Part shown: one piece after another, positions 3,145 through 18,723 of the stretch | Numbering within the stretch: position 1 is the stretch's first letter | Layout: each line of letters starts with the position of its first letter | Source of the DNA: a phage | DNA: 64,000 bases | Reading direction: 5' to 3' (one strand) | Assembly (NCBI GenBank): GCA_021525805.1 | Contig: GCA_021525805.1_3940.1 | The notes under the pieces: model-generated | The model's input: the letters and a program-made list of their open reading frames with translations, nothing else | Database searches by the model: none | What the model was told of the DNA's origin: nothing | Translations under genes and position numbers: made by a program

Positions 3145-3149
3145 ATTAC

Positions 3150-4800
3150 TAATCAACGCAGCGGGGCTAAATAGCCCCAGATACCTTTACAGCCCCTTTC
3201 CCATATAGATTCGATAGAGTCTATCTCATAGGGGCTTTTTTACATCCTATCAAATCCCTTATACAACCCTTTCCCTTTCCTTTCCAGAATCTTATCAGAC
3301 CTTAAAAAGCAATAACTCTATAGTCTACTCTATAGCCTTTTATCAAATCAACTTAAATATAAGCCCATAACCCGAAAGGGAAGGGCAACCCCTTAAACGC
3401 TCTATAACGCTCTATAACAGCCTTATCAACCTAACTTAAAGGATTGCATTACCTCACCCTTAAAAGCCCTTTATAAAGCTTCCCAGAGCCTTAAAAGAAT
3501 CTTATAAGGGTATAAGCTTATAGGCTGACTAGTATCTTGTGAATGGTTAAACAAACCCCTTGATAGTCATTAAAAAGCATGTTATAGGGGCTATGAAGTT
3601 ACTTTGAAGTAGCTTAAAAGTTACGTAAATGCTAGCCCCCTTAACATTTTCTTAACAATTTCTTAACAAACCCTACATAGTTATGCTTTTAAGGCACTTG
3701 TTAGCAACTTGTTAGCCCCTTGTTAAATCTCTGTTAAGACCACGTAAAAGCCTTGTAAGAGTCTTTGACATAGCCTTTAAAGCCCCTGTAAAGCCCTATA
3801 AAGAGCTATCTGTACAGTTGGGCTGTAGTTACTAGGGAGAGACTTAAAAGGGGCTATACAGAGCTATACAGAGCTTTTAAGAGGTATGTTTAAAGAATCA
3901 CTAAGAAAGGAAAGGGAACGATAAGAAAAGAGTAGTGACCATGTTAATAGCTTGTTAAAAAGATTAAACACTTGTTAGGAACTTGTTAATTATCTTAACA
4001 AAATAACTCTTAAAAATTAACTTGTTAGCTCTTGTTAGTCATCTGTTAAGACTCTGTAAAGGCTATGTATCAACTGTTAAGAAATTGTTACAGCCTTGTT
4101 AGTTCTGTTAAGAAACTGTTAAGACCTCTGAAGAGTTGTTAAGAAGATGTGAGAACTGTTAAGAGATTGTTAAGGATATTTTAAAATTTTGCAAAGGGGG
4201 TGTTAAGGAGCTGTTAAGGGCTACCAAGCAGATATACATCCTAGACAGATATTTTTCAGTGCCTTCAAAGACCCTAAAAAATGACTTGATAGCCCTATTT
4301 TATAAAAATTTTAAGATTCTGAATAATTACCTATACAGTCTTTTAAAAATACAGGTAATAACAGGTTTATAAGATACCTTGTTAGTACCGTGTTAGACCT
4401 TGTGAGATAAGGTCTGTGAAGACATTCCTGTTAAGTTTGTTAAAACAGTCTATATAGAGGCTTAGTAATACCTAGTGAACACCTATAGAGAGTCATCTAT
4501 GTAACATAGAGATTAAGAGGTGTATAGGAGCTTCTAAGAGTGTGTAGAGAGATGGTTAAGGTGATTGTATAGGCTGTTAAGAAGGCTTGTTAGAAGAGTG
4601 TTTAGAAGGATTGTTAGAGGGCTAGTTAGAAGGGTTATACAGAGGGCTATTAAGACCACTAGATAGTTACTAAGATACTATATAGCACTATATAACTATA
4701 TAGAGAGTAAGATTAAGAAGGTTGTTAAGAAGGATAGATATTTTGTTCACATATGATGGTGACCCAGAGGTTGGGACAACCGATAAAATTTTATAAAAAT
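3150..4800. repeat. ORF-free repeat-rich region (phased TGTTAAG/TTGTTAG-type short repeats plus other short direct repeats and hairpins)
   Basis: no ORF of 60 aa or more on either strand; dozens of copies of CTGTTAAGA / CTTGTTAG / GGTTAAGG often about 10-11 bp apart, densest 3690-4740; also CTATAACGCTCTATAAC, CTATACAGAGCTATACAGAGC. Confidence 0.8.
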
Positions 4801-4836
4801 TAAAAAGCCCCCAATTAAGGAGGCTCTTAAGATATT

Positions 4837-5440: not shown

Positions 5441-5665
5441 TTACTCAGACTTTTCAGTCTTCTTATCGGATTTCTTACTAGTCTTCTTCTCAGCTTTCTG
5501 CTCAGGTTCCTTCTCAGGAGTTGCCTTGATAACCATATCAAGAAGCTCTGATAAGTCACTCTTCAGCAAAGTAACAGGCTGCTCATTGTAGAAGTTTTTG
5601 TCAAGATAGACTTTGAACTCTTCAATAGATGGAAATCCAAAAATTGGTACAGGTGTTTTAATCAT
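5441..5665 (-). CDS. hypothetical small protein with Lys/Glu-rich C-terminus
   Basis: 74-aa ORF. Confidence 0.45.
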   Translation of the reverse strand: MIKTPVPIFGFPSIEEFKVYLDKNFYNEQPVTLLKSDLSELLDMVIKATPEKEPEQKAEKKTSKKSDKKTEKSE

Positions 5666-5740
5666 TACTTAGCTCTCCATAGGCATCTTTTAAGATTGCC
5701 TTGTTAATCATTTCAGCGATTGCAAAACGAACACATACAG

Positions 5741-6274
5741 CTATAATTGTAGGTTGCATTCTTTACTTACCTCTTCAAGTTTAACCTCAGAGTCCTTAAG
5801 TAGTTTCTTATGAACCCTGAACCTTATTAGTGAGATGATGATACCAGCTAAAGGAACAGCATACAAGTACCAAACATCATGTACCTTTGCAGTAATCTGT
5901 GTAATGGTCAAGTCTTGAGCTATACAACTGATTGCTGATACTGCCAGTAACATTGCTAAGAAGAACGCCAGTACCATAACAATACTTAGGCAGCCTCTGG
6001 CATGGTGTTCATGCTTAATACACTTATTCTTTTCATCAACAACTCTGTTGTAGTCATTTGTAAAGTCTCTGTAGAAAGCTTTCAAGTATTCTTGACTGTA
6101 TCCTTCAAAGCAACCTGTGCCATACCAATAATCACCACCAAAATGTGCTATGATGCCGGTATCTCCATTCGGTTTGGTTACTTTTAAAGAAGTATGATGG
6201 CGAGTATCCTGATAATCTATCTTGTATCTTTCTTCGTAAATCATTTTCCAACCCCTCTCAATCGTTTGTTCCAT
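5741..6274 (-). CDS. hypothetical membrane protein
   Basis: 177-aa ORF with long hydrophobic segment (CLSIVMVLAFFLAMLLAVSAISCIA) and second TM-like stretch. Confidence 0.6.
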   Translation of the reverse strand: MEQTIERGWKMIYEERYKIDYQDTRHHTSLKVTKPNGDTGIIAHFGGDYWYGTGCFEGYSQEYLKAFYRDFTNDYNRVVDEKNKCIKHEHHARGCLSIVMVLAFFLAMLLAVSAISCIAQDLTITQITAKVHDVWYLYAVPLAGIIISLIRFRVHKKLLKDSEVKLEEVSKECNLQL

Positions 6275-6459
6275 TCAAGGTCAACAAGTCTTTGCAGGAC
6301 TTTCCCTCTAGGTGTTACACCTTTTAAATCTGCATCATAGCAACGGTAAAAGTCACCTTCAGCGTGCTTACCATAGCATTTTCTGATATTCTGGCTTCTA
6401 CGATACTGTTCTAACAGGGAAAGTTTGTAGTAATCTTCAACTGTAGTTAACTTTTTCAT
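6241..6459 (-). CDS. hypothetical small protein
   Basis: 72-aa ORF overlapping neighbours at both ends. Confidence 0.45.
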   Translation of the reverse strand: MKKLTTVEDYYKLSLLEQYRRSQNIRKCYGKHAEGDFYRCYDADLKGVTPRGKVLQRLVDLEWNKRLRGVGK

Positions 6460-7001
6460 TCTTTCACCATAGCATTTCTGAACTGGCGTTGTGTTTCTCT
6501 TGTAATTTCGTTTGGAGTAAACCCTGCTTTTAGCATATCTCTGAAAAGAGCTTCTAAGTGGTTCCTCTCAATGATGTAAATGGCATTCTGAATAGCTGTT
6601 TTACGCTCCTTCAAGTCACTGCTAATCTCTTCACACTTACTGGTAAGCTCTGTATCAACTCTCTTAAAGGGTGGTATAATATGTGTATGACCACCTTTAG
6701 CAGCATCCATGAAAAATTTAAAAGATTCTTCAGAGTCCTTTAAAGCAATTCCTATAAAGTTTTTGTAAGCACCTGTGAAAGATAAGGAATCAATCTCAGC
6801 AGTTGAGTATACAGTCCCTGCACACAGTCTTGCAGAAGTACTAAATGTGTGGTTTGGTGTTGTGTCAAAGTCTAAGTTCTTCAGTGGTCGGAAATAAACT
6901 GTACCATTTTGTGAGATGTGTGTTACAACAGCCTCAACACTCTTTGAAGGATTCTGTTTAACATACAAAATAATTTTATCGTGTTCTTTCACTTTAGCCA
7001 T
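6456..7001 (-). CDS. hypothetical protein
   Basis: 181-aa ORF. Confidence 0.6.
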   Translation of the reverse strand: MAKVKEHDKIILYVKQNPSKSVEAVVTHISQNGTVYFRPLKNLDFDTTPNHTFSTSARLCAGTVYSTAEIDSLSFTGAYKNFIGIALKDSEESFKFFMDAAKGGHTHIIPPFKRVDTELTSKCEEISSDLKERKTAIQNAIYIIERNHLEALFRDMLKAGFTPNEITRETQRQFRNAMVKE

Positions 7002-7073
7002 ATCTACTCTCCAGAAACTAAAAAGGGAACTACCTCTCGATAGTTCCCATCATAATCAGTTTTGTATAATTGG

Positions 7074-7655
7074 TCAAGAGTATTTTTTAGGCAGTAATGC
7101 ACTGCGCTTGTTACTCTCTTCACTCAATAGTGCAATGAAATCATCACTTTTACCTTTCCACGGGCTGAATGAAGGGATATGTTCACGGATAGCCTCAATC
7201 ACTGTTTTAAGTGCTGTGTTCTTCATCCACCAATCAGAATCTGCTGATGCTACCACGTAGTATCCACCGTCATCAGTTAAAATTGGCTCTGAAATACATG
7301 GCGAAATCAAAGTGGTGATGATTGAACCATTGTTCATGTAGTATGTGCGCTTCATAACCTTTTCAAGAAGCTTGTGAAGGTCACCAAACAGTGTTACAAG
7401 TTCTTTGTGGTCAATGTCTTTTTCTAGGTTTGCTCGATACTTCAATAGTGCAGCATCAACCTCTCTGTCATTAAACTTGAAATATTGAACTTCATCAACA
7501 AGGCAAACACTTATGTTGTTAACATTCATAGTCAACTTACAAACTTTTGCAGGAGAGTTGATACTTGGTTGAAAAAGTGCAACACACCCTTCAATGTTTC
7601 CAAAGTGTTGGACTAGTGTTACTTGTGGAGTAATATTCTGTTGCTCTTCGGACAT
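7074..7655 (-). CDS. hypothetical protein
   Basis: 193-aa ORF. Confidence 0.6.
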   Translation of the reverse strand: MSEEQQNITPQVTLVQHFGNIEGCVALFQPSINSPAKVCKLTMNVNNISVCLVDEVQYFKFNDREVDAALLKYRANLEKDIDHKELVTLFGDLHKLLEKVMKRTYYMNNGSIITTLISPCISEPILTDDGGYYVVASADSDWWMKNTALKTVIEAIREHIPSFSPWKGKSDDFIALLSEESNKRSALLPKKYS

Positions 7656-7999
7656 TACAGTTTCCTCATTAAATACTTTTTAAGTTGTGTGTTAGGTTTC
7701 TCAAAAACTTCTATAGAAGATATCTTGACAGATTCACCACGCATACCAGTATGTTTGAATATGTAATACTCTAACATCCCTATGTACTTTGCTGGTAAGT
7801 CATGTTTGACATACACCGTTACAGAGTCTTCAAACTCAACAACCTTTGTACCGTCTTTGTAGTTAAACTCTTTAGGATGGTTGTAGTTGTCTAAGTCATA
7901 CATTAAAAAGAGTCTTTTACGTTGTAAGTCAAGCTTATTGGTTAAAGACTCTTTGATATCTGAGAAGTTTTTGTACACTGTGACATGGAGCTTACTCAT
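7655..7999 (-). CDS. hypothetical protein
   Basis: 114-aa ORF, start/stop overlap with neighbours. Confidence 0.55.
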   Translation of the reverse strand: MSKLHVTVYKNFSDIKESLTNKLDLQRKRLFLMYDLDNYNHPKEFNYKDGTKVVEFEDSVTVYVKHDLPAKYIGMLEYYIFKHTGMRGESVKISSIEVFEKPNTQLKKYLMRKL

Positions 8000-8285
8000 C
8001 GTTAAACTCTCTGACGAAGAAATAGTTGACTTTATTATTACCTACCATAAGGTCAAAGCAGGTATTCTCAAAAGGCTTGTTGTAGGCATCGTATGAAACA
8101 TATGGGTCAGCCACTTGCTTAGTGCTTAACTTCTTACTTGATGGATTTAAGAGGCCACCATACAGCTTCTTGATAGCCTCTTCTACAACAGACCAGATGA
8201 TTTCGTCAGTAATTTCTTCGTACAGGTCAAGTTCACGCTCTAGTGAGAAGTCACAAATAGGGAAAATAACCTGTACTTTACTCAT
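7992..8285 (-). CDS. hypothetical protein
   Basis: 97-aa ORF; its ATG overlaps the stop of the restored upstream frame (TAATG). Confidence 0.55.
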   Translation of the reverse strand: MSKVQVIFPICDFSLERELDLYEEITDEIIWSVVEEAIKKLYGGLLNPSSKKLSTKQVADPYVSYDAYNKPFENTCFDLMVGNNKVNYFFVREFNDE

Positions 8286-8691
8286 TAACGAATAACCTGT
8301 GTGACTTGAATTGCTTCAGTTACGGACAAGTCACCCACTTTCTCTTCTTTGACGAAGGTGAAGGTAAGCTCAACAGGCTCTTGCTCTTCTTGCTCAACCG
8401 GAATACCATTAAGCTCATCAAAGATTGATTGAGTTGTCCAGTCTTCTCCACCATCTGGGTAGTGGATTGCATAAAGAGGAAACTCTAAATTGTACCAAGC
8501 AAAAACAGGACAACCATCGGCATCATCTCGGCATCATCTCGGCATCTGTGGAGATATGTGTTTGTACCTTCGAAATGCAAATGGAGATTACCATTCTTCT
8601 CAAAGAGAATAGCATCTTGCAAGTCTAGTTCCTCATTTTCGCTGTAACGGCTGACATCAACTTTAACGTGAATATGACTGTTATTATTCAT
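8285..8691 (-). pseudogene. gene disrupted by frameshift from an 11-bp tandem duplication (intact form would encode about 132 aa)
   Basis: track ORF 8485..8691 (68 aa) stops just after tandem repeat GGCATCATCTC x2 plus partial third copy (8519-8548); removing one 11-bp unit gives an uninterrupted frame to TAA at 8285-8287. Confidence 0.65.
8519..8548. repeat. 11-bp tandem direct repeat GGCATCATCTC (2 full copies + partial)
   Basis: read directly: GGCATCATCTCGGCATCATCTCGGCATCTG. Confidence 0.85.
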
Positions 8692-9082
8692 AAAAACCTC
8701 TCTCTGCTAGTTTTATCTTTTCTTTGAGTGTTTCACAACGCTCTATGTGATATTTTGCTTCACACTCGTGGGTTGTTAACTCTCTTTCAAGTAGAGTTTT
8801 ATAATAACCTGACAATTGCTCTGCTGTCAATGGGTGTTCAGAAATAATATCTAATCCGCTTTCTCCAAGAGGGTTGAACCGACCGTACTCATCTACTTTG
8901 TAAATCTCGAACCTGAAAAACCCATTCTTAGCACGGGTAATAGGTGATAGTTCAGCTAACTCTACAGTGAACTTTGTAGAAACCTCATCACCGCTTACTA
9001 CAATCTGGCTGCCAATAATCCTCACCATCGAACCATCACGAGTGTACTTAAAAGTTCCAAAGTCACTAGCCCAAAGTTTCAT
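8684..9082 (-). CDS. hypothetical protein
   Basis: 132-aa ORF downstream of endolysin. Confidence 0.55.
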   Translation of the reverse strand: MKLWASDFGTFKYTRDGSMVRIIGSQIVVSGDEVSTKFTVELAELSPITRAKNGFFRFEIYKVDEYGRFNPLGESGLDIISEHPLTAEQLSGYYKTLLERELTTHECEAKYHIERCETLKEKIKLAERGFYE

Positions 9083-9099
9083 AGTTTTCTCCTTAGAAA

Positions 9100-9124
9100 A
9101 TAAAAAAGGCTCCCGAAGGAGCCT
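9100..9124 (-). terminator. putative rho-independent terminator (minus strand) after endolysin gene
   Basis: GGCTCC-CGAA-GGAGCC hairpin flanked by A-run on + strand (T-run on minus). Confidence 0.5.
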
Positions 9125-9133
9125 ATGAAGATA

Positions 9134-15873: not shown

Positions 15874-16030
15874 CCTAATAAGATTTTAAAGCCAAGCTTC
15901 ATTCGGATGTTGCTTTGGTATCCCTCGTGTATTGTCGTACACACTGATAAAGCACCTAGTAGGTGTCACGGAGAAGAGATAATATCAAGCTCTCCAAAGG
16001 TTCTAGTCACCGGATTAAACAAGACTATGC

Positions 16031-16053
16031 AAAGACCTTTTTAGGTCTTTTTA
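16031..16053 (+). terminator. putative rho-independent terminator
   Basis: AAGACC-TTTTT-AGGTCTT followed by TTTT. Confidence 0.55.
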
Positions 16054-16131
16054 GAGGGCTTCTAAGGTTATTACAGCTTGTTGTGGAACCTTGTTGCTTA
16101 GGTTCTTAGAAGTTCTCTAAAAAGATTTAAT

Positions 16132-16209
16132 GGGAGATTGACGGTAATTGGTAAACCTATCTCGCTTAGAACGAGATGTTTGAGGGTTCGAATCCCTTGT
16201 CTCCTACCA
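16132..16209 (+). tRNA. tRNA with anticodon TAG (Leu-type anticodon, short variable arm)
   Basis: acceptor GGGAGAT/GTCTCCT, anticodon arm TCTCG-CTTAGAA-CGAGA perfect, T-arm GAGGGTTCGAATCCCTT, A73, CCA encoded. Confidence 0.6.
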
Positions 16210-16216
16210 AATTAAT

Positions 16217-16292
16217 GCAGGTGTAGCAAAATGGTTATGCGGCTGACTCTTAATCAGTAAGACGATGGGTTCAATTCCCTCCACCTGTACCA
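16217..16292 (+). tRNA. tRNA-Lys (anticodon CTT)
   Basis: acceptor GCAGGTG/CACCTGT; anticodon arm GCTGA-CTCTTAA-TCAGT; CCA encoded; paralogue of the TTT copy. Confidence 0.7.
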
Positions 16293-16298
16293 GATATT

Positions 16299-16373
16299 GG
16301 GGATGTAGTTTACATGGTTAAAACATAAGTTTTGCAAACTTAAGTACAGGGTTCAATTCCCTGCTTCTCCACC
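16299..16373 (+). tRNA. tRNA-Cys (anticodon GCA)
   Basis: anticodon arm AAGTT-TTGCAAA-AACTT; T-arm CAGGGTTCAATTCCCTG; CCA encoded. Confidence 0.65.
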
Positions 16374-16380
16374 AATTAGT

Positions 16381-16455
16381 GCATCCATAGTTTAAACGGG
16401 AAAATTACAGTCTTCCAAACTGAGGTTGAGGGTTCGATTCCCTCTGGATGCTCCA
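16381..16455 (+). tRNA. tRNA-Gly (anticodon TCC)
   Basis: acceptor GCATCCA/TGGATGC perfect; loop CTTCCAA; T-arm GAGGGTTCGATTCCCTC; CCA encoded. Confidence 0.75.
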
Positions 16456-16461
16456 AACAAT

Positions 16462-16538
16462 GCTGCTTTCGTATAATTGGCTATTACACATCCCTTGTAA
16501 GGATGGAAATGCAGGTTCGAGTCCTGTGAGCAGCACCA
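16462..16538 (+). tRNA. tRNA-Thr (anticodon TGT)
   Basis: anticodon arm CATCC-CTTGTAA-GGATG perfect; T-arm CAGGTTCGAGTCCTG; CCA encoded. Confidence 0.75.
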
Positions 16539-16540
16539 AT

Positions 16541-16632
16541 TCAGAGGTCAAGTGAAAGACCGCTGGTGTCAACTGAAGACCGTAACAAATTCCACGGAGT
16601 TGAGTTAGCGGCACAACTTCAGACCTCTTTCA
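16541..16632 (+). ncRNA. candidate structured RNA S6 (outer helix AGAGGTC/GACCTCT enclosing about 75 nt with box-like GAAGACCGT)
   Basis: nested complementary segments CTGAAG/CTTCAG, GTTG/CAAC; no tRNA T-loop; no ORF. Confidence 0.35.
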
Positions 16633-16633
16633 T

Positions 16634-16708
16634 ACTCGCTTAGTTTATATGGTAAAACATCACCCTTACAAGATGAAGAAAAAGGTTCAAGTCCTTTAGT
16701 GAGTACCA
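16634..16708 (+). tRNA. tRNA-Val (anticodon TAC)
   Basis: acceptor ACTCGCT/AGTGAGT, loop CTTACAA, T-arm AAAGGTTCAAGTCCTTT perfect, CCA encoded. Confidence 0.65.
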
Positions 16709-16709
16709 T

Positions 16710-16787
16710 GTTCCAGTATCCCAATTGGCAGAGGATGCAAGCTCAAACCTTGTATTAGTGACGGTTCGAATCCGTCTTGGAACACCA
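16710..16787 (+). tRNA. tRNA with anticodon CAA (Leu-type anticodon, short variable arm)
   Basis: acceptor GTTCCAG/TTGGAAC; D-loop AATTGGCAGA; anticodon arm GCAAG-CTCAAAC-CTTGT; CCA encoded. Confidence 0.6.
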
Positions 16788-16805
16788 ATTTAAAGAGGCT
16801 ATTTA

Positions 16806-17363
16806 ATGAGATATTTGAAGTATGCTTCATGGATTTTCTTAGCTTTACTAGACCCAATTGCAGCAACCCTAGCAGTTATCTTAGCACCTTTCGTAGTTCC
16901 ATTCTACAGTGAGAAGAAAGGGCATCTACCTTTTGGATTCAGATGGATGGAGACCTATGACAACCCGATTGATGGTGATAAAGGCCACGTTGAGAGATGG
17001 GCTAAGATTAGAAAGATTGGTAAGCTCGGTGTTTATATGCAGAGAGTTGGATGGCTCTGGAGAAACAAAGCTTATAACTTCTCTTACCATGTATTAGGAA
17101 GAGATGTAAAAGATGTTACTAAGTGGAAAGGCAATATCAACGTAAGTTCTGACCCTGAAGATAATCAGACTGGTTATCTCCTAATGTGGAACAGCAATGC
17201 TTGGGGATTATTCGCTTTTATCCCATCAATTAAAGTCTTTGGTAAACAATTTTACTGGAGAATTTATGTTGGGTGGAAACTAAAAAGTGTTGTCCCAGAA
17301 GAAAGAGCATTCTCAAGGGAAAGAGTTATGTTGGCATTCTTTATTCATCCACTGAGAAAGTAA
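16806..17363 (+). CDS. hypothetical membrane protein embedded in tRNA array
   Basis: 185-aa ORF with AAGAGG RBS; N-terminal TM segment WIFLALLDPIAATLAVILAPFVV. Confidence 0.6.
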   Translation: MRYLKYASWIFLALLDPIAATLAVILAPFVVPFYSEKKGHLPFGFRWMETYDNPIDGDKGHVERWAKIRKIGKLGVYMQRVGWLWRNKAYNFSYHVLGRDVKDVTKWKGNINVSSDPEDNQTGYLLMWNSNAWGLFAFIPSIKVFGKQFYWRIYVGWKLKSVVPEERAFSRERVMLAFFIHPLRK

Positions 17364-17371
17364 AGATTTAA

Positions 17372-17447
17372 AGGGGATTAGTTTACAAGGTTAAAACCTC
17401 GGTCTTTGAAATCGAAGAAGTTGGTTCAATTCCAACATCCCCCGCCA
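17372..17447 (+). tRNA. tRNA-Gln (anticodon TTG)
   Basis: anticodon arm TCGGT-CTTTGAA-ATCGA; T-arm GTTGGTTCAATTCCAAC perfect; CCA encoded. Confidence 0.65.
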
Positions 17448-17449
17448 AT

Positions 17450-17528
17450 GCTCCATTACTCCAATTGGCAGAGAGGCCAGACTTAAAATCTGTGTTATGT
17501 ATCGGTTCGAATCCGATATGGAGTACCA
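17450..17528 (+). tRNA. tRNA with anticodon TAA (Leu-type anticodon)
   Basis: acceptor GCTCCAT/ATGGAGT; D-loop AATTGGCAGA; loop CTTAAAA; T-arm ATCGGTTCGAATCCGAT perfect; CCA encoded. Confidence 0.6.
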
Positions 17529-17533
17529 AATTT

Positions 17534-17609
17534 AGCGGTATAGCATAACTGGCAATGCAACAGTCTCTGAAGCTGTCCTATTAAGGTTCAAATCCTTATG
17601 CCGCTGCCA
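17534..17609 (+). tRNA. tRNA-Gln (anticodon CTG)
   Basis: anticodon arm ACAGT-CTCTGAA-GCTGT; T-arm TAAGGTTCAAATCCTTA perfect; CCA encoded. Confidence 0.65.
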
Positions 17610-17640
17610 CTTCTAAGGGTTCTTACGAGAGTCCTTAAAT

Positions 17641-17716
17641 GTGGCCTTATCATAAATGGTAATGACCCATGCTGTGAACATGGTCTATACGGGTTCAAAT
17701 CCCGTAGGTCACCCCA
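17641..17716 (+). tRNA. tRNA-His (anticodon GTG)
   Basis: anticodon arm CCATG-CTGTGAA-CATGG perfect; acceptor GTGGCCT/AGGTCAC; CCA encoded. Confidence 0.75.
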
Positions 17717-17722
17717 ATTTAT

Positions 17723-17798
17723 AGTCCAAGTAGCTTATATGGTTAAAGCGCGTGTCTGAAAAACATGAGAAGAGGGTTCAAATCCCACTGGACTACCA
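17723..17798 (+). tRNA. tRNA-Phe (anticodon GAA)
   Basis: anticodon arm CGTGT-CTGAAAA-ACATG; T-loop TTCAAAT; CCA encoded. Confidence 0.7.
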
Positions 17799-17814
17799 AT
17801 TTCAAAGGTGCTTA

Positions 17815-18549
17815 ATGAAAGAGATGACAGAACAAGGTAAGGAGATTTTTAATCTCTTAAAAACCGGTAAAGGGTTTTCTAACCCACTTATTACTGGTGC
17901 AGCAGTTCTCGGTGGAACCGTAGCTGCCTCAACATCACTTATAAGCTCTATTAGCTCTGTAACAGACCCTACAATGAAGGAGAAGCTTGTTGCTGCTGGA
18001 CTTACAACAGTCCTTCTAAACAGCTTTACAACAAGCCTGACAAGCACTACAGCAACTACTAAGACCCTAACAGACTATGGTCAAAAGTCTATTGATGAGT
18101 TTTCATCACGTATGCAGGTAGCAAAGGGATACTCCAATGTTATGGGTGCAGCAGGAGAACAAGTTGGTTGTACACCATTCAGTGGTATTATGGGTGTTGC
18201 TACAGAATATGGTCAAAAAGCTATTGACATGATGAACAGTACACTAGATAGTGTTAATGGTGTGTTAAGTGACTTACAAGATGCTATTGATAAGGGTCTT
18301 GATACTGTTTCTGATTTGGCTAACCAAGCTGTTAGCAAGATTAATGAAGGTATCTCAAAGATTACAGCTTATGCAGATGAAGTTGTGCAGATGATTGAAG
18401 AAGAAGCTGCCCTTATTGCAGAGTACCTTAAAACGAATATCAATGGGTTCTTAGCAGGTATCTTACCAGACTGGTTTGATGATGCTTGTAAAACTGGTGT
18501 AATCGACACTATTGCAACACCAGAAATGAAGAACGCATTGCAGAAATAA
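17815..18549 (+). CDS. hypothetical Ser/Thr/Ala-rich protein (start refined from track ORF 17752..18549)
   Basis: track ORF starts at GTG inside tRNA-Phe; ATG at 17815 lies just past the tRNA; stop abuts tRNA-Ser. Confidence 0.55.
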   Translation: MKEMTEQGKEIFNLLKTGKGFSNPLITGAAVLGGTVAASTSLISSISSVTDPTMKEKLVAAGLTTVLLNSFTTSLTSTTATTKTLTDYGQKSIDEFSSRMQVAKGYSNVMGAAGEQVGCTPFSGIMGVATEYGQKAIDMMNSTLDSVNGVLSDLQDAIDKGLDTVSDLANQAVSKINEGISKITAYADEVVQMIEEEAALIAEYLKTNINGFLAGILPDWFDDACKTGVIDTIATPEMKNALQK

Positions 18550-18550
18550 T

Positions 18551-18643
18551 GGAAGATTAACCCTAAAAGGTAAGGGAGCAGTTTGCTAAACTGCCAGTAG
18601 CTGAGAAATCGGTGTACCAGTTCAAGTCTGGTATCTTCCTCCA
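18551..18643 (+). tRNA. tRNA-Ser (anticodon GCT), long variable arm
   Basis: 93 nt; acceptor GGAAGAT/ATCTTCC perfect; anticodon arm GCAGT-TTGCTAA-ACTGC perfect; T-arm ACCAGTTCAAGTCTGGT; CCA encoded. Confidence 0.75.
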
Positions 18644-18647
18644 ATTT

Positions 18648-18723
18648 GAATCCGTGACAGAAATGGCTATGTGCCTGTCTGCAAAACAGGTTTATAAGTG
18701 TTCAAGTCCCTTCGGATTCTCCA
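18648..18723 (+). tRNA. tRNA with anticodon GCA (second Cys-type copy)
   Basis: acceptor GAATCCG/CGGATTC perfect; anticodon arm CCTGT-CTGCAAA-ACAGG perfect; CCA encoded. Confidence 0.6.

What the first reader, a model, noticed from the sequence alone, without database searches (positions are those of the whole stretch)
8285..8691. Gene broken by an 11-bp tandem duplication; restoring one unit gives an intact 132-codon ORF
The minus-strand ORF 8485..8691 (68 aa) ends just after the repeat GGCATCATCTC-GGCATCATCTC-GGCATCTG (8519-8548). I translated the frame that results from deleting one 11-bp unit: it stays open for the remaining 200 nt and ends at TAA 8285-8287, overlapping the ATG of the next gene (TAATG). 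That downstream stretch has no start codon of its own. This is a frameshift pseudogene, a slippage-prone phase-variable gene or a sequencing/assembly artefact.
Basis: seen in the sequence. Interest (0 to 1): 0.7.

Follow-up and report, generated by a model that had tools for sequence, protein, structure and literature searches.

The report
Phage gene broken by 11-bp duplication
In this Felix O1-like phage genome a small, conserved gene of unknown function has been knocked out by a recent 11-base tandem duplication, which is an ordinary replication-slippage mutation and not a new mechanism.

Summary
Window 8517-8546 holds a perfect 11-bp array of 2.7 copies. Every relative examined has 1.7 copies, so the window carries exactly one extra unit.

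The window is a Felixounavirus genome. Relatives encode an intact 126-138 aa protein here (PHROG 4348, Felix01p066, bas63_0121) under strong purifying selection (dN/dS 0.01-0.06). The extra unit shifts the frame after codon 54. The product is 68 aa and lacks the most conserved two-thirds of the protein. The downstream remnant has no usable start codon.

None of about 160 GenBank relatives and no IMG/VR contig carries the duplication. The one metagenome hit is unrelated. The remnant shows no decay, so the event is very recent.

An independent Logan assembly of run SRR11464032 is base-identical to the window over 6.2 kb, including the duplication. No other gene among 86 comparable ORFs is frame-split. 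An assembler artefact is therefore unlikely, but I could not inspect reads.

I found no slippery heptamer and no stimulatory RNA structure. The 8-bp direct repeats that seeded the slippage are not conserved among relatives. Programmed frameshifting and evolved phase variation are therefore not supported.

The GenBank label "D-alanyl-D-alanine carboxypeptidase" has no support. Verdict: ordinary, low interest.

The parts
8517..8546 (.). Perfect 11-bp tandem array of 2.7 copies. On the coding (minus) strand it reads GATGCCGAGAT GATGCCGAGAT GATGCCGA. One 11-nt unit is extra relative to all relatives; either 8519-8529 or 8530-8540 can be called the insertion.
   Evidence: TRF; exact unit positions; 11-nt gap in four relatives in alignment A1 and in A4.
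8485..8691 (-). Truncated ORF of 68 aa. It has 54 native N-terminal residues followed by 14 out-of-frame residues (EMMPMVVLFLLGTI) and a TAG stop. A GAGAGG Shine-Dalgarno-like motif lies 5 nt upstream of the ATG. The start overlaps the stop of the upstream gene by 8 nt.
   Evidence: The exact 68-aa product is also called on Logan contig SRR11464032_60.
8285..8533 (-). Out-of-frame 3' remnant of the gene, in the -1 frame relative to the ATG at 8691. It encodes the conserved C-terminal part DGCPVF...YAIHYPDGGEDWTTQSIFDELNG...TFTFVKEEKVGDLSVTEAIQVTQVIR. It has no start codon of its own. Its TAA (8285-8287) overlaps the next gene's ATG.
   Evidence: Translation. tblastn HSP 8533-8288 is 97.6% identical to ESCO49 residues 50-131. 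Conservation shown. dN/dS of this part against relatives is 0.02-0.06.
8684..9082 (-). Upstream gene of the same cassette (132 aa, PHROG 4266, unknown function).
   Evidence: The exact protein equals HBN4425642.1, a TPA record from E. coli O25b:H4-ST131 on an 87,356-bp contig.
7992..8285 (-). Downstream gene (97 aa, PHROG 4385, unknown function). In relatives its ATG overlaps the stop of the broken gene. Here it sits 197 nt after the premature stop, so translational coupling is probably lost (inferred).
7025..9124 (-). Context: a probable five-gene transcription unit of overlapping small genes (132 aa, broken gene, 97, 114 and 193 aa). It is bracketed by terminator-like hairpins at 9124-9107 and 7048-7025 and lies just downstream of the endolysin gene (9134-9598).
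   Evidence: Consensus scan (a pattern match only); ORF overlaps; endolysin Pfam PF00959.

Best explanation
This is a genuine, very recent, strain-private loss-of-function mutation.

The ancestral allele still exists unchanged in Salmonella phages SP4, SEP1 and SP2. On the coding strand it reads ...CAGATGCCGAGATGATGCCGATGG..., which contains two perfect 8-bp direct repeats (GATGCCGA) 11 nt apart. During replication the nascent strand slipped back by one 11-nt register (Streisinger-type slipped-strand mispairing). That copied GATGCCGAGAT a second time and turned 1.7 copies into 2.7 copies.

The +11 nt shifts the reading frame after codon 54 of a 131-codon gene. Translation then runs through 14 foreign, hydrophobic codons to a TAG. 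The most conserved two-thirds of the protein are never made, because that segment has no start codon of its own.

The gene is the second of five tightly overlapping small genes just downstream of the endolysin. It belongs to an Ounavirinae-restricted family of unknown function (PHROG 4348; Felix01p066; bas63_0121).

Shown: the duplication, the frameshift, the intact orthologues, purifying selection on the family, the uniqueness of the allele, and its presence in two assemblies. Inferred: the slippage mechanism, that the gene is dispensable for this phage under the conditions it was sampled in, and a possible polar effect on the next gene through lost translational coupling.
For: Clean 11-nt insertion against four relatives.

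The SP4/SEP1/SP2 allele matches the window at 120 of 131 positions, and the only difference is the 11-nt gap.

All listed GenBank hits span 120 nt for the 131-nt query. For the 56-nt junction query they span 44-45 nt and need two overlapping pieces.

The junction pattern has 0 hits in IMG/VR. The single metagenome hit is an unrelated GC-rich poly(A) transcript.

125 homologue clusters are 119-138 aa long, and all are full length except one other frameshift allele.

dN/dS is 0.01-0.06 across the family. It is also 0.02-0.06 for the now untranslated part of the window's copy, which has only 3 private codon changes. The break is therefore recent.

The C-terminal part that is lost is the most conserved part of the protein.

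The Logan assembly of SRR11464032 is an exact 6,207-bp substring of the window and includes the duplication.

Of 86 ESCO49 ORFs with a match in the window, only this gene is split over two frames.
Against: No reads were inspected. A library or sequencing artefact, or a mixed population in which the intact allele is a minority, cannot be excluded.

The two assemblies probably derive from the same read set. They are independent of each other as assemblers but not as data.

The strong conservation of the gene makes its loss somewhat surprising. However, a second independent frameshift allele exists in SRR31707993.
Confidence: 0.78

Rival explanations
1. Sequencing, library or assembly artefact. 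The phage really has the intact 131-codon gene, and the extra 11 bp was introduced in silico or during library preparation.
For: The allele is seen in only one sample. The exact restored protein is not on record anywhere. The gene is otherwise strongly conserved.
Against: Two different assemblies give the identical sequence: a contig of at least 64 kb that supplies the window, and a 36-kb Logan contig. The whole array is 30 nt, shorter than the k of 31 that I recall Logan using (my recollection, not verified here). If so, a de Bruijn assembler cannot invent a copy without supporting k-mers in the reads (inference). Eleven-base duplications are not a known systematic error of short-read platforms (general knowledge). 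No other gene in the 64-kb window is frame-split.
Confidence: 0.1
2. Reversible on/off switch (phase-variation-like). The 30-bp array gains and loses 11-bp units at high frequency, so the phage population toggles this gene, and by polarity perhaps its downstream partners.
For: A tandem duplication is intrinsically unstable and can revert by the same slippage (general knowledge). The frame is restored exactly by loss of one unit. A second loss-of-function allele of the same gene exists elsewhere, so switching the gene off is tolerated.
Confidence: 0.06
3. The frameshift is bypassed during expression. A -1 ribosomal frameshift or transcriptional slippage in the overlap zone (for example at CTG TTT TTG) yields a near-full-length protein.
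For: The downstream frame is the -1 frame. A window of about 50 nt, open in both frames, contains a run of five T.
Against: The overlap zone has no X XXY YYZ heptamer (G TTT TTG has a mismatched first position; sequence). The downstream 113 nt fold no better than shuffles (z = -0.58). The two-frame arrangement is absent from every relative, so it cannot be an evolved signal. A run of five T is too short for efficient transcriptional slippage (general knowledge).
Confidence: 0.02
4. Adaptive knockout. The gene product is sensed by, or is costly in, the E. coli ST131 host with which the phage was co-sequenced, and the null allele was selected as an escape mutation.
For: The neighbouring protein's exact sequence is recorded under an E. 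coli O25b:H4-ST131 TPA record. In the related phage Bas63, small genes of this region show mixed, host-dependent essentiality, and the adjacent endolysin gene g123 behaves as a trigger of a retron defence (PMC11482910). Frameshift nulls are a usual form of escape mutation (general knowledge).
Against: There is no direct evidence. PADLOC, Pfam and NCBIfam give nothing for the protein. Intact alleles are also found in Felixounavirus contigs from bacterial isolate assemblies. The PhageMaP text does not mention the orthologue g121.
Confidence: 0.04

Closest known systems
Spontaneous frameshift by tandem duplication between short direct repeats (Streisinger slipped-strand mispairing; classic cases are the lacI CTGG hotspot and T4 rII duplications) - from general knowledge
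   Same: The new copy is flanked by, and made from, a pre-existing short direct repeat (8 bp, 11-nt register). The result is a perfect tandem array, a frameshift and a premature stop. It is reversible in principle by the reverse slip.
   Different: Nothing essential differs. This is a single natural allele seen in one sample, not a measured hotspot.
PHROG 4348 / Felix01p066 / bas63_0121 family of Ounavirinae (some GenBank records call it 'D-alanyl-D-alanine carboxypeptidase')
   Same: The restored product matches the PHROG profile end to end (E 4.6e-76). It is 88-98% identical to Felixounavirus orthologues in the same gene neighbourhood.
   Different: The window's copy is frameshifted and can only yield the first 54 native residues. 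The carboxypeptidase label is not supported by Pfam, NCBIfam, PDB sequence or fold comparisons.
Phase-variable contingency loci, including hypermutable poly-G tracts in Campylobacter phage receptor-binding genes (general knowledge)
   Same: A repeat inside a coding region whose copy number decides whether the frame is open.
   Different: Those tracts are long (many units), conserved among relatives and visibly polymorphic between and within isolates. Here there are 2.7 copies of an 11-bp unit, the allele is unique to one sample, and the founding repeat is not conserved.
Programmed -1 ribosomal frameshifting in phage genes (e.g. tail assembly chaperones G/GT; dnaX) (general knowledge)
   Same: Two overlapping frames whose fusion would give a longer product; the downstream frame is -1.
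   Different: There is no slippery heptamer and no stimulatory structure, and the arrangement is absent from all relatives.

Membership tests
Frameshift-disrupted orthologue (pseudogene / null allele) | Intact orthologues exist in close relatives at the same locus | tested here: met
Frameshift-disrupted orthologue (pseudogene / null allele) | An indel whose length is not a multiple of three, relative to orthologues, causing a premature stop | tested here: met
   An 11-nt insertion in alignment A1. The stop comes after 68 codons instead of 131. tblastn splits the gene into frames -2 and -1.
Frameshift-disrupted orthologue (pseudogene / null allele) | The downstream part cannot be expressed on its own | tested here: met
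   No ATG, GTG or TTG in the downstream frame until about 17 codons before its end. No ORF of 30 aa or more is listed in that frame.
Frameshift-disrupted orthologue (pseudogene / null allele) | The lesion is present in the DNA molecule, not only in one assembly | tested here: inconclusive
Phase-variable (contingency) locus | Repeat tract conserved among related genomes | tested here: not met
Phase-variable (contingency) locus | Copy number varies between isolates | tested here: not met
   All listed GenBank relatives have 11 nt fewer than the window, and none has other lengths at the site. IMG/VR gives 0 junction hits.
Phase-variable (contingency) locus | Copy number varies within a population or sample | not testable with these tools
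   This needs the reads of SRR11464032 or amplicon sequencing. The only indirect hint is that the Logan contig is unbroken at the site.
Programmed -1 ribosomal frameshift site | Slippery heptamer X XXY YYZ in the zone open in both frames | tested here: not met
   The zone reads GAT GCC GAG ATG ATG CCG ATG GTT GTC CTG TTT TTG CTT GGT ACA ATT TAG. The only candidate is G TTT TTG, which has a non-matching first base.
Programmed -1 ribosomal frameshift site | Stimulatory downstream RNA structure | tested here: not met
   MFE is -24.8 kcal/mol against a shuffle mean of -22.9 (z = -0.58).
Programmed -1 ribosomal frameshift site | Two-frame arrangement conserved in relatives | tested here: not met
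   All relatives encode the protein in a single frame.
D-alanyl-D-alanine carboxypeptidase (GenBank label of some orthologues) | Match to a peptidase family (VanY/M15, S11, S13 etc.) by sequence or fold | tested here: not met
PHROG 4348 (unknown function) | Full-length profile match | tested here: met
   The restored protein gives E 4.6e-76, residues 3-131 against profile positions 1-129 of 129.

The most novel reading that the evidence does not exclude
The duplication is not a dead end but a selected and readily reversible knockout. In a phage persisting together with an E. coli ST131 isolate, loss of this conserved accessory protein was favoured because the protein triggers or is targeted by a host defence. 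The knockout may also dampen the translationally coupled genes downstream. The unstable 30-bp array would let the population regain the gene by losing one unit.
Probability: 0.05. Interest if true: 0.5.

Novelty: new member of a known kind. Interest (0 to 1): 0.12.

Why it matters
The finding matters little beyond annotation.

It tells annotators that 8285-8691 is a single disrupted gene. It is not a 68-aa gene followed by a 197-nt spacer.

It shows that this Ounavirinae-specific, strongly conserved gene can be lost in a phage whose complete, otherwise intact genome was recovered. A second independent broken allele supports this. That marks the gene as accessory and as a candidate for host-specific function tests.

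It also flags a propagated misannotation ('D-alanyl-D-alanine carboxypeptidase') in many Felixounavirus records.

Tried and rejected
1. An independent start for the downstream segment. None exists.

2. A -1 PRF or transcriptional slippage rescue. There is no heptamer, no structure and no conservation.

3. Recurrence of the duplication elsewhere. GenBank phages gave none with 131-nt and 56-nt junction queries. IMG/VR gave 0. Complete E. coli genomes gave no match to the locus at all. JGI metagenomes gave one hit, L007. It is an unrelated GC-rich poly(A) transcript with a CCGAGATGATG microsatellite, so it is a chance match.

5. Essentiality of the Bas63 orthologue bas63_0121 in the PhageMaP study (PMC11482910). 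The gene is not mentioned in the text, and no supplementary tables are held.

6. Literature searches for the run accession and for the carboxypeptidase label in Felixounavirus. Both found nothing.

Full report
**What the window is.** The region belongs to a Felix O1-like myovirus (genus Felixounavirus, subfamily Ounavirinae). A 1.3-kb query around the finding matches 215 GenBank phage records, nearly all Escherichia, Salmonella or Shigella Felixounavirus, and the best is 95.9% identical. A 24-kb query from the structural region peaks at about 95-97%. This exact phage is therefore not in that collection. The window carries the usual cluster of 22 tRNA genes. The exact sequence of the neighbouring 132-aa protein is recorded in NCBI as a TPA protein of E. 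coli O25b:H4-ST131 on an 87,356-bp contig. The phage was therefore most probably co-sequenced with a bacterial isolate.

**Checking the observation.** The minus strand reads ...CAC AGA TGC CGA GAT GAT GCC GAG ATG ATG CCG ATG GTT....
- TRF reports a period-11 array at 8517-8546 with 2.7 copies and 100% identity.
- The + strand units GGCATCATCTC sit at 8519-8529 and 8530-8540.
- The ORF from ATG 8691 stops at TAG 8485-8487 after 68 codons.
- Removing one unit in silico gives a 396-nt ORF of 131 aa. It ends in the TAA at 8285-8287, which overlaps the ATG of the next gene.
- In the actual sequence the downstream frame is open from a TGA inside the repeat to that TAA. It contains no ATG, GTG or TTG until about 17 codons before the end.

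Such a perfect array is not a chance event. It is expected about 2e-7 times in 64 kb (my arithmetic). Only one other exact 11-bp tandem duplication is present in the window, in a repeat-rich non-coding region.

- The DNA alignment shows a clean 11-nt gap in all relatives exactly at the repeat.
- The SP4, SEP1 and SP2 allele differs from the window over 131 nt only by this gap, 120 of 131 positions or 91.6%. The pre-duplication sequence CAGATGCCGAGATGATGCCGATGG therefore exists in nature.
- That sequence contains two perfect 8-bp direct repeats (GATGCCGA) 11 nt apart, the substrate expected for slipped-strand mispairing.

**How common the duplication is.**
- With a 131-nt query, 163 GenBank records match. 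Every listed full-length hit spans 120 nt, and none exceeds 91.6% identity.
- With a 56-nt junction query, every good hit needs two overlapping pieces spanning only 44-45 nt.
- A degenerate 30-nt junction pattern has no match in IMG/VR.
- Its single match in JGI metagenomes is an unrelated GC-rich polyadenylated transcript with a similar microsatellite.
- At the protein level, 125 clusters of homologues (90% identity level) are 119-138 aa long.
- The only other aberrant one, P0084 from run SRR31707993, carries a different lesion: a 1-nt deletion near the 3' end.

The 11-bp duplication is therefore private to one sample. Loss of this gene has nevertheless been seen twice, independently.

**Real mutation or artefact.** The exact 68-aa truncated product is on record from the Logan assembly of run SRR11464032, on a 36,382-bp contig. 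The 6,207 bp fetched from that contig are an exact substring of the window, at 5485-11691. The window is 64 kb long, so it must come from another assembly. Two assemblers therefore agree.

The array is 30 nt, shorter than the k of 31 that I recall Logan using (my recollection, not verified here). If so, the extra copy must be supported by k-mers in the reads (inference).

I also compared 86 ESCO49 ORFs that have a match in the window. Of these, 79 align in one HSP over at least 90% of their length, and only the gene in question is split across two frames. The other flagged cases are a spurious ORF among the tRNAs, an in-frame difference in Ig-domain number, the window edge, and start-site differences. 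The assembly is therefore not error-ridden. I could not see reads, so an artefact or a mixed population is not excluded.

**Age of the lesion.** Pairwise Nei-Gojobori estimates among the restored window gene and five orthologues give dN/dS of 0.01-0.06. The now untranslated 3' part of the window's copy shows the same low values, 0.02-0.06. It has only three private codon changes, two synonymous and one Ile/Val that also occurs in intact alleles. There is no decay, so the frameshift is evolutionarily very recent.

**What is lost.** The alignment of 46 family members shows that the invariant positions are concentrated after the break: DGCPVF, YAIHYPDGxEDWTT, DELNG, TFTF and EEKVGDxSVTEAxQVxQVIR. 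The 68-aa product keeps only the variable N-terminal 54 residues plus a hydrophobic 14-residue tail. It is almost certainly non-functional (inference).

**The gene's function could not be determined.**
- Pfam, NCBIfam, PADLOC and a PDB profile search are empty.
- The only family match is PHROG 4348, 'unknown function', with a full-length match at E 4.6e-76.
- An AlphaFold2 model of the 98%-identical P0033 is mostly beta with one helix, but of modest confidence (pLDDT 66.6).
- A profile search of 1.84 billion representative proteins finds six hits in all, so the family is confined to this phage group.
- The label 'D-alanyl-D-alanine carboxypeptidase' carried by many GenBank orthologues has no support.

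**Context.** Terminator-like hairpins on the minus strand at 9124-9107 (just after the endolysin gene) and at 7048-7025 bracket five small genes. Their starts and stops overlap by 8, 1, 8 and 1 nt. This suggests one translationally coupled unit. It is a consensus match plus inference.

With the frameshift, the 97-aa gene's ATG lies 197 nt after the premature stop. Only a weak AGGT motif sits 9 nt upstream of it. Its translation may therefore be reduced (inference, untested).

[quoted passage not shown] The orthologue bas63_0121 is not discussed, and the tables were not available.

**Alternatives considered.**
- *Programmed -1 frameshifting.* The downstream frame is the -1 frame, so a -1 shift could in principle rescue the protein. 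The zone open in both frames has no X XXY YYZ heptamer; the closest is G TTT TTG. The downstream RNA folds no better than shuffled sequence (z = -0.58). The arrangement is absent from all relatives.
- *Evolved phase variation.* The allele is unique, the founding repeat is not conserved, and the copy number is low. A tandem duplication is nonetheless inherently revertible, so within-sample heterogeneity remains to be checked.
- *Adaptive knockout.* Escape from a host defence in the ST131 host is possible, but nothing here supports it.

**Verdict.** The feature is an ordinary slipped-strand tandem duplication that recently inactivated a conserved accessory gene of unknown function in one Felixounavirus genome. 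It is useful for annotation: one disrupted gene, not a short gene plus a spacer. It also hints that the gene is dispensable. It is not a new mechanism. The decisive missing step is a read-level check of SRR11464032.

Noticed in passing
window 3145-4836: A 1.7-kb ORF-free stretch lies between the + strand gene block (ends 3144) and the - strand block (4837 onward). It is packed with short tandem repeats of period 10-12. 32 of the window's 148 TGTTAR hexamers lie in 3641-4728, mostly on the + strand and often exactly 11 bp apart, i.e. helically phased. The equivalent region is also unannotated in Bas63 (MZ501086.1 70493-72154). It could be a binding-site array, an origin or a promoter cluster.
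   Followed up: partly
L008 1001-1397 (Logan SRR31707993_651): A second, independent frameshift allele of the same gene occurs in another Felixounavirus. A 1-nt deletion (ACC to AC) about 25 codons before the stop gives a 119-aa product with a foreign tail.
   Followed up: yes
window 8285-8691 orthologues in GenBank (e.g. UPW39523.1, QHR74006.1): Many Felixounavirus records label this protein 'D-alanyl-D-alanine carboxypeptidase'. No sequence-family or fold evidence supports that, so it looks like a propagated misannotation.
   Followed up: yes
window 9598-10230 (-): The Ig-like domain protein next to the endolysin is 210 aa here, with one Ig domain by Pfam. It is 377 aa in ESCO49 and larger still in Bas63 (gp124). 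This is in-frame variation in the number of Ig repeats between close relatives.
   Followed up: partly
whole window /: Near-complete genomes of these strictly lytic phages (about 85-88 kb contigs) are recorded under bacterial isolate names: E. coli including O25b:H4-ST131, Shigella flexneri and Citrobacter freundii. Felixounavirus DNA is therefore repeatedly co-sequenced with isolates, through a carrier state or contamination.
   Followed up: no
GenBank GU169904.1 (hit H20): 'Staphylococcus phage SA1' (147 kb) matches this Felixounavirus region over its full length at 89% identity. That record appears to contain Felix O1-like sequence and is probably chimeric or contaminated.
   Followed up: no
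window 13890-18723 (+): A cluster of 22 tRNA genes is interspersed with a few small ORFs, as is typical for Felix O1-like phages.
   Followed up: no
window 9107-9124 and 7025-7048 (-): Two strong terminator-like hairpins (AGGCTCC-TTCG-GGAGCCT followed by a T-run; GGGAACTATC-GAGA-GGTAGTTCCC followed by a T-run) delimit a five-gene cassette of overlapping small genes of unknown function downstream of the endolysin.
   Followed up: partly
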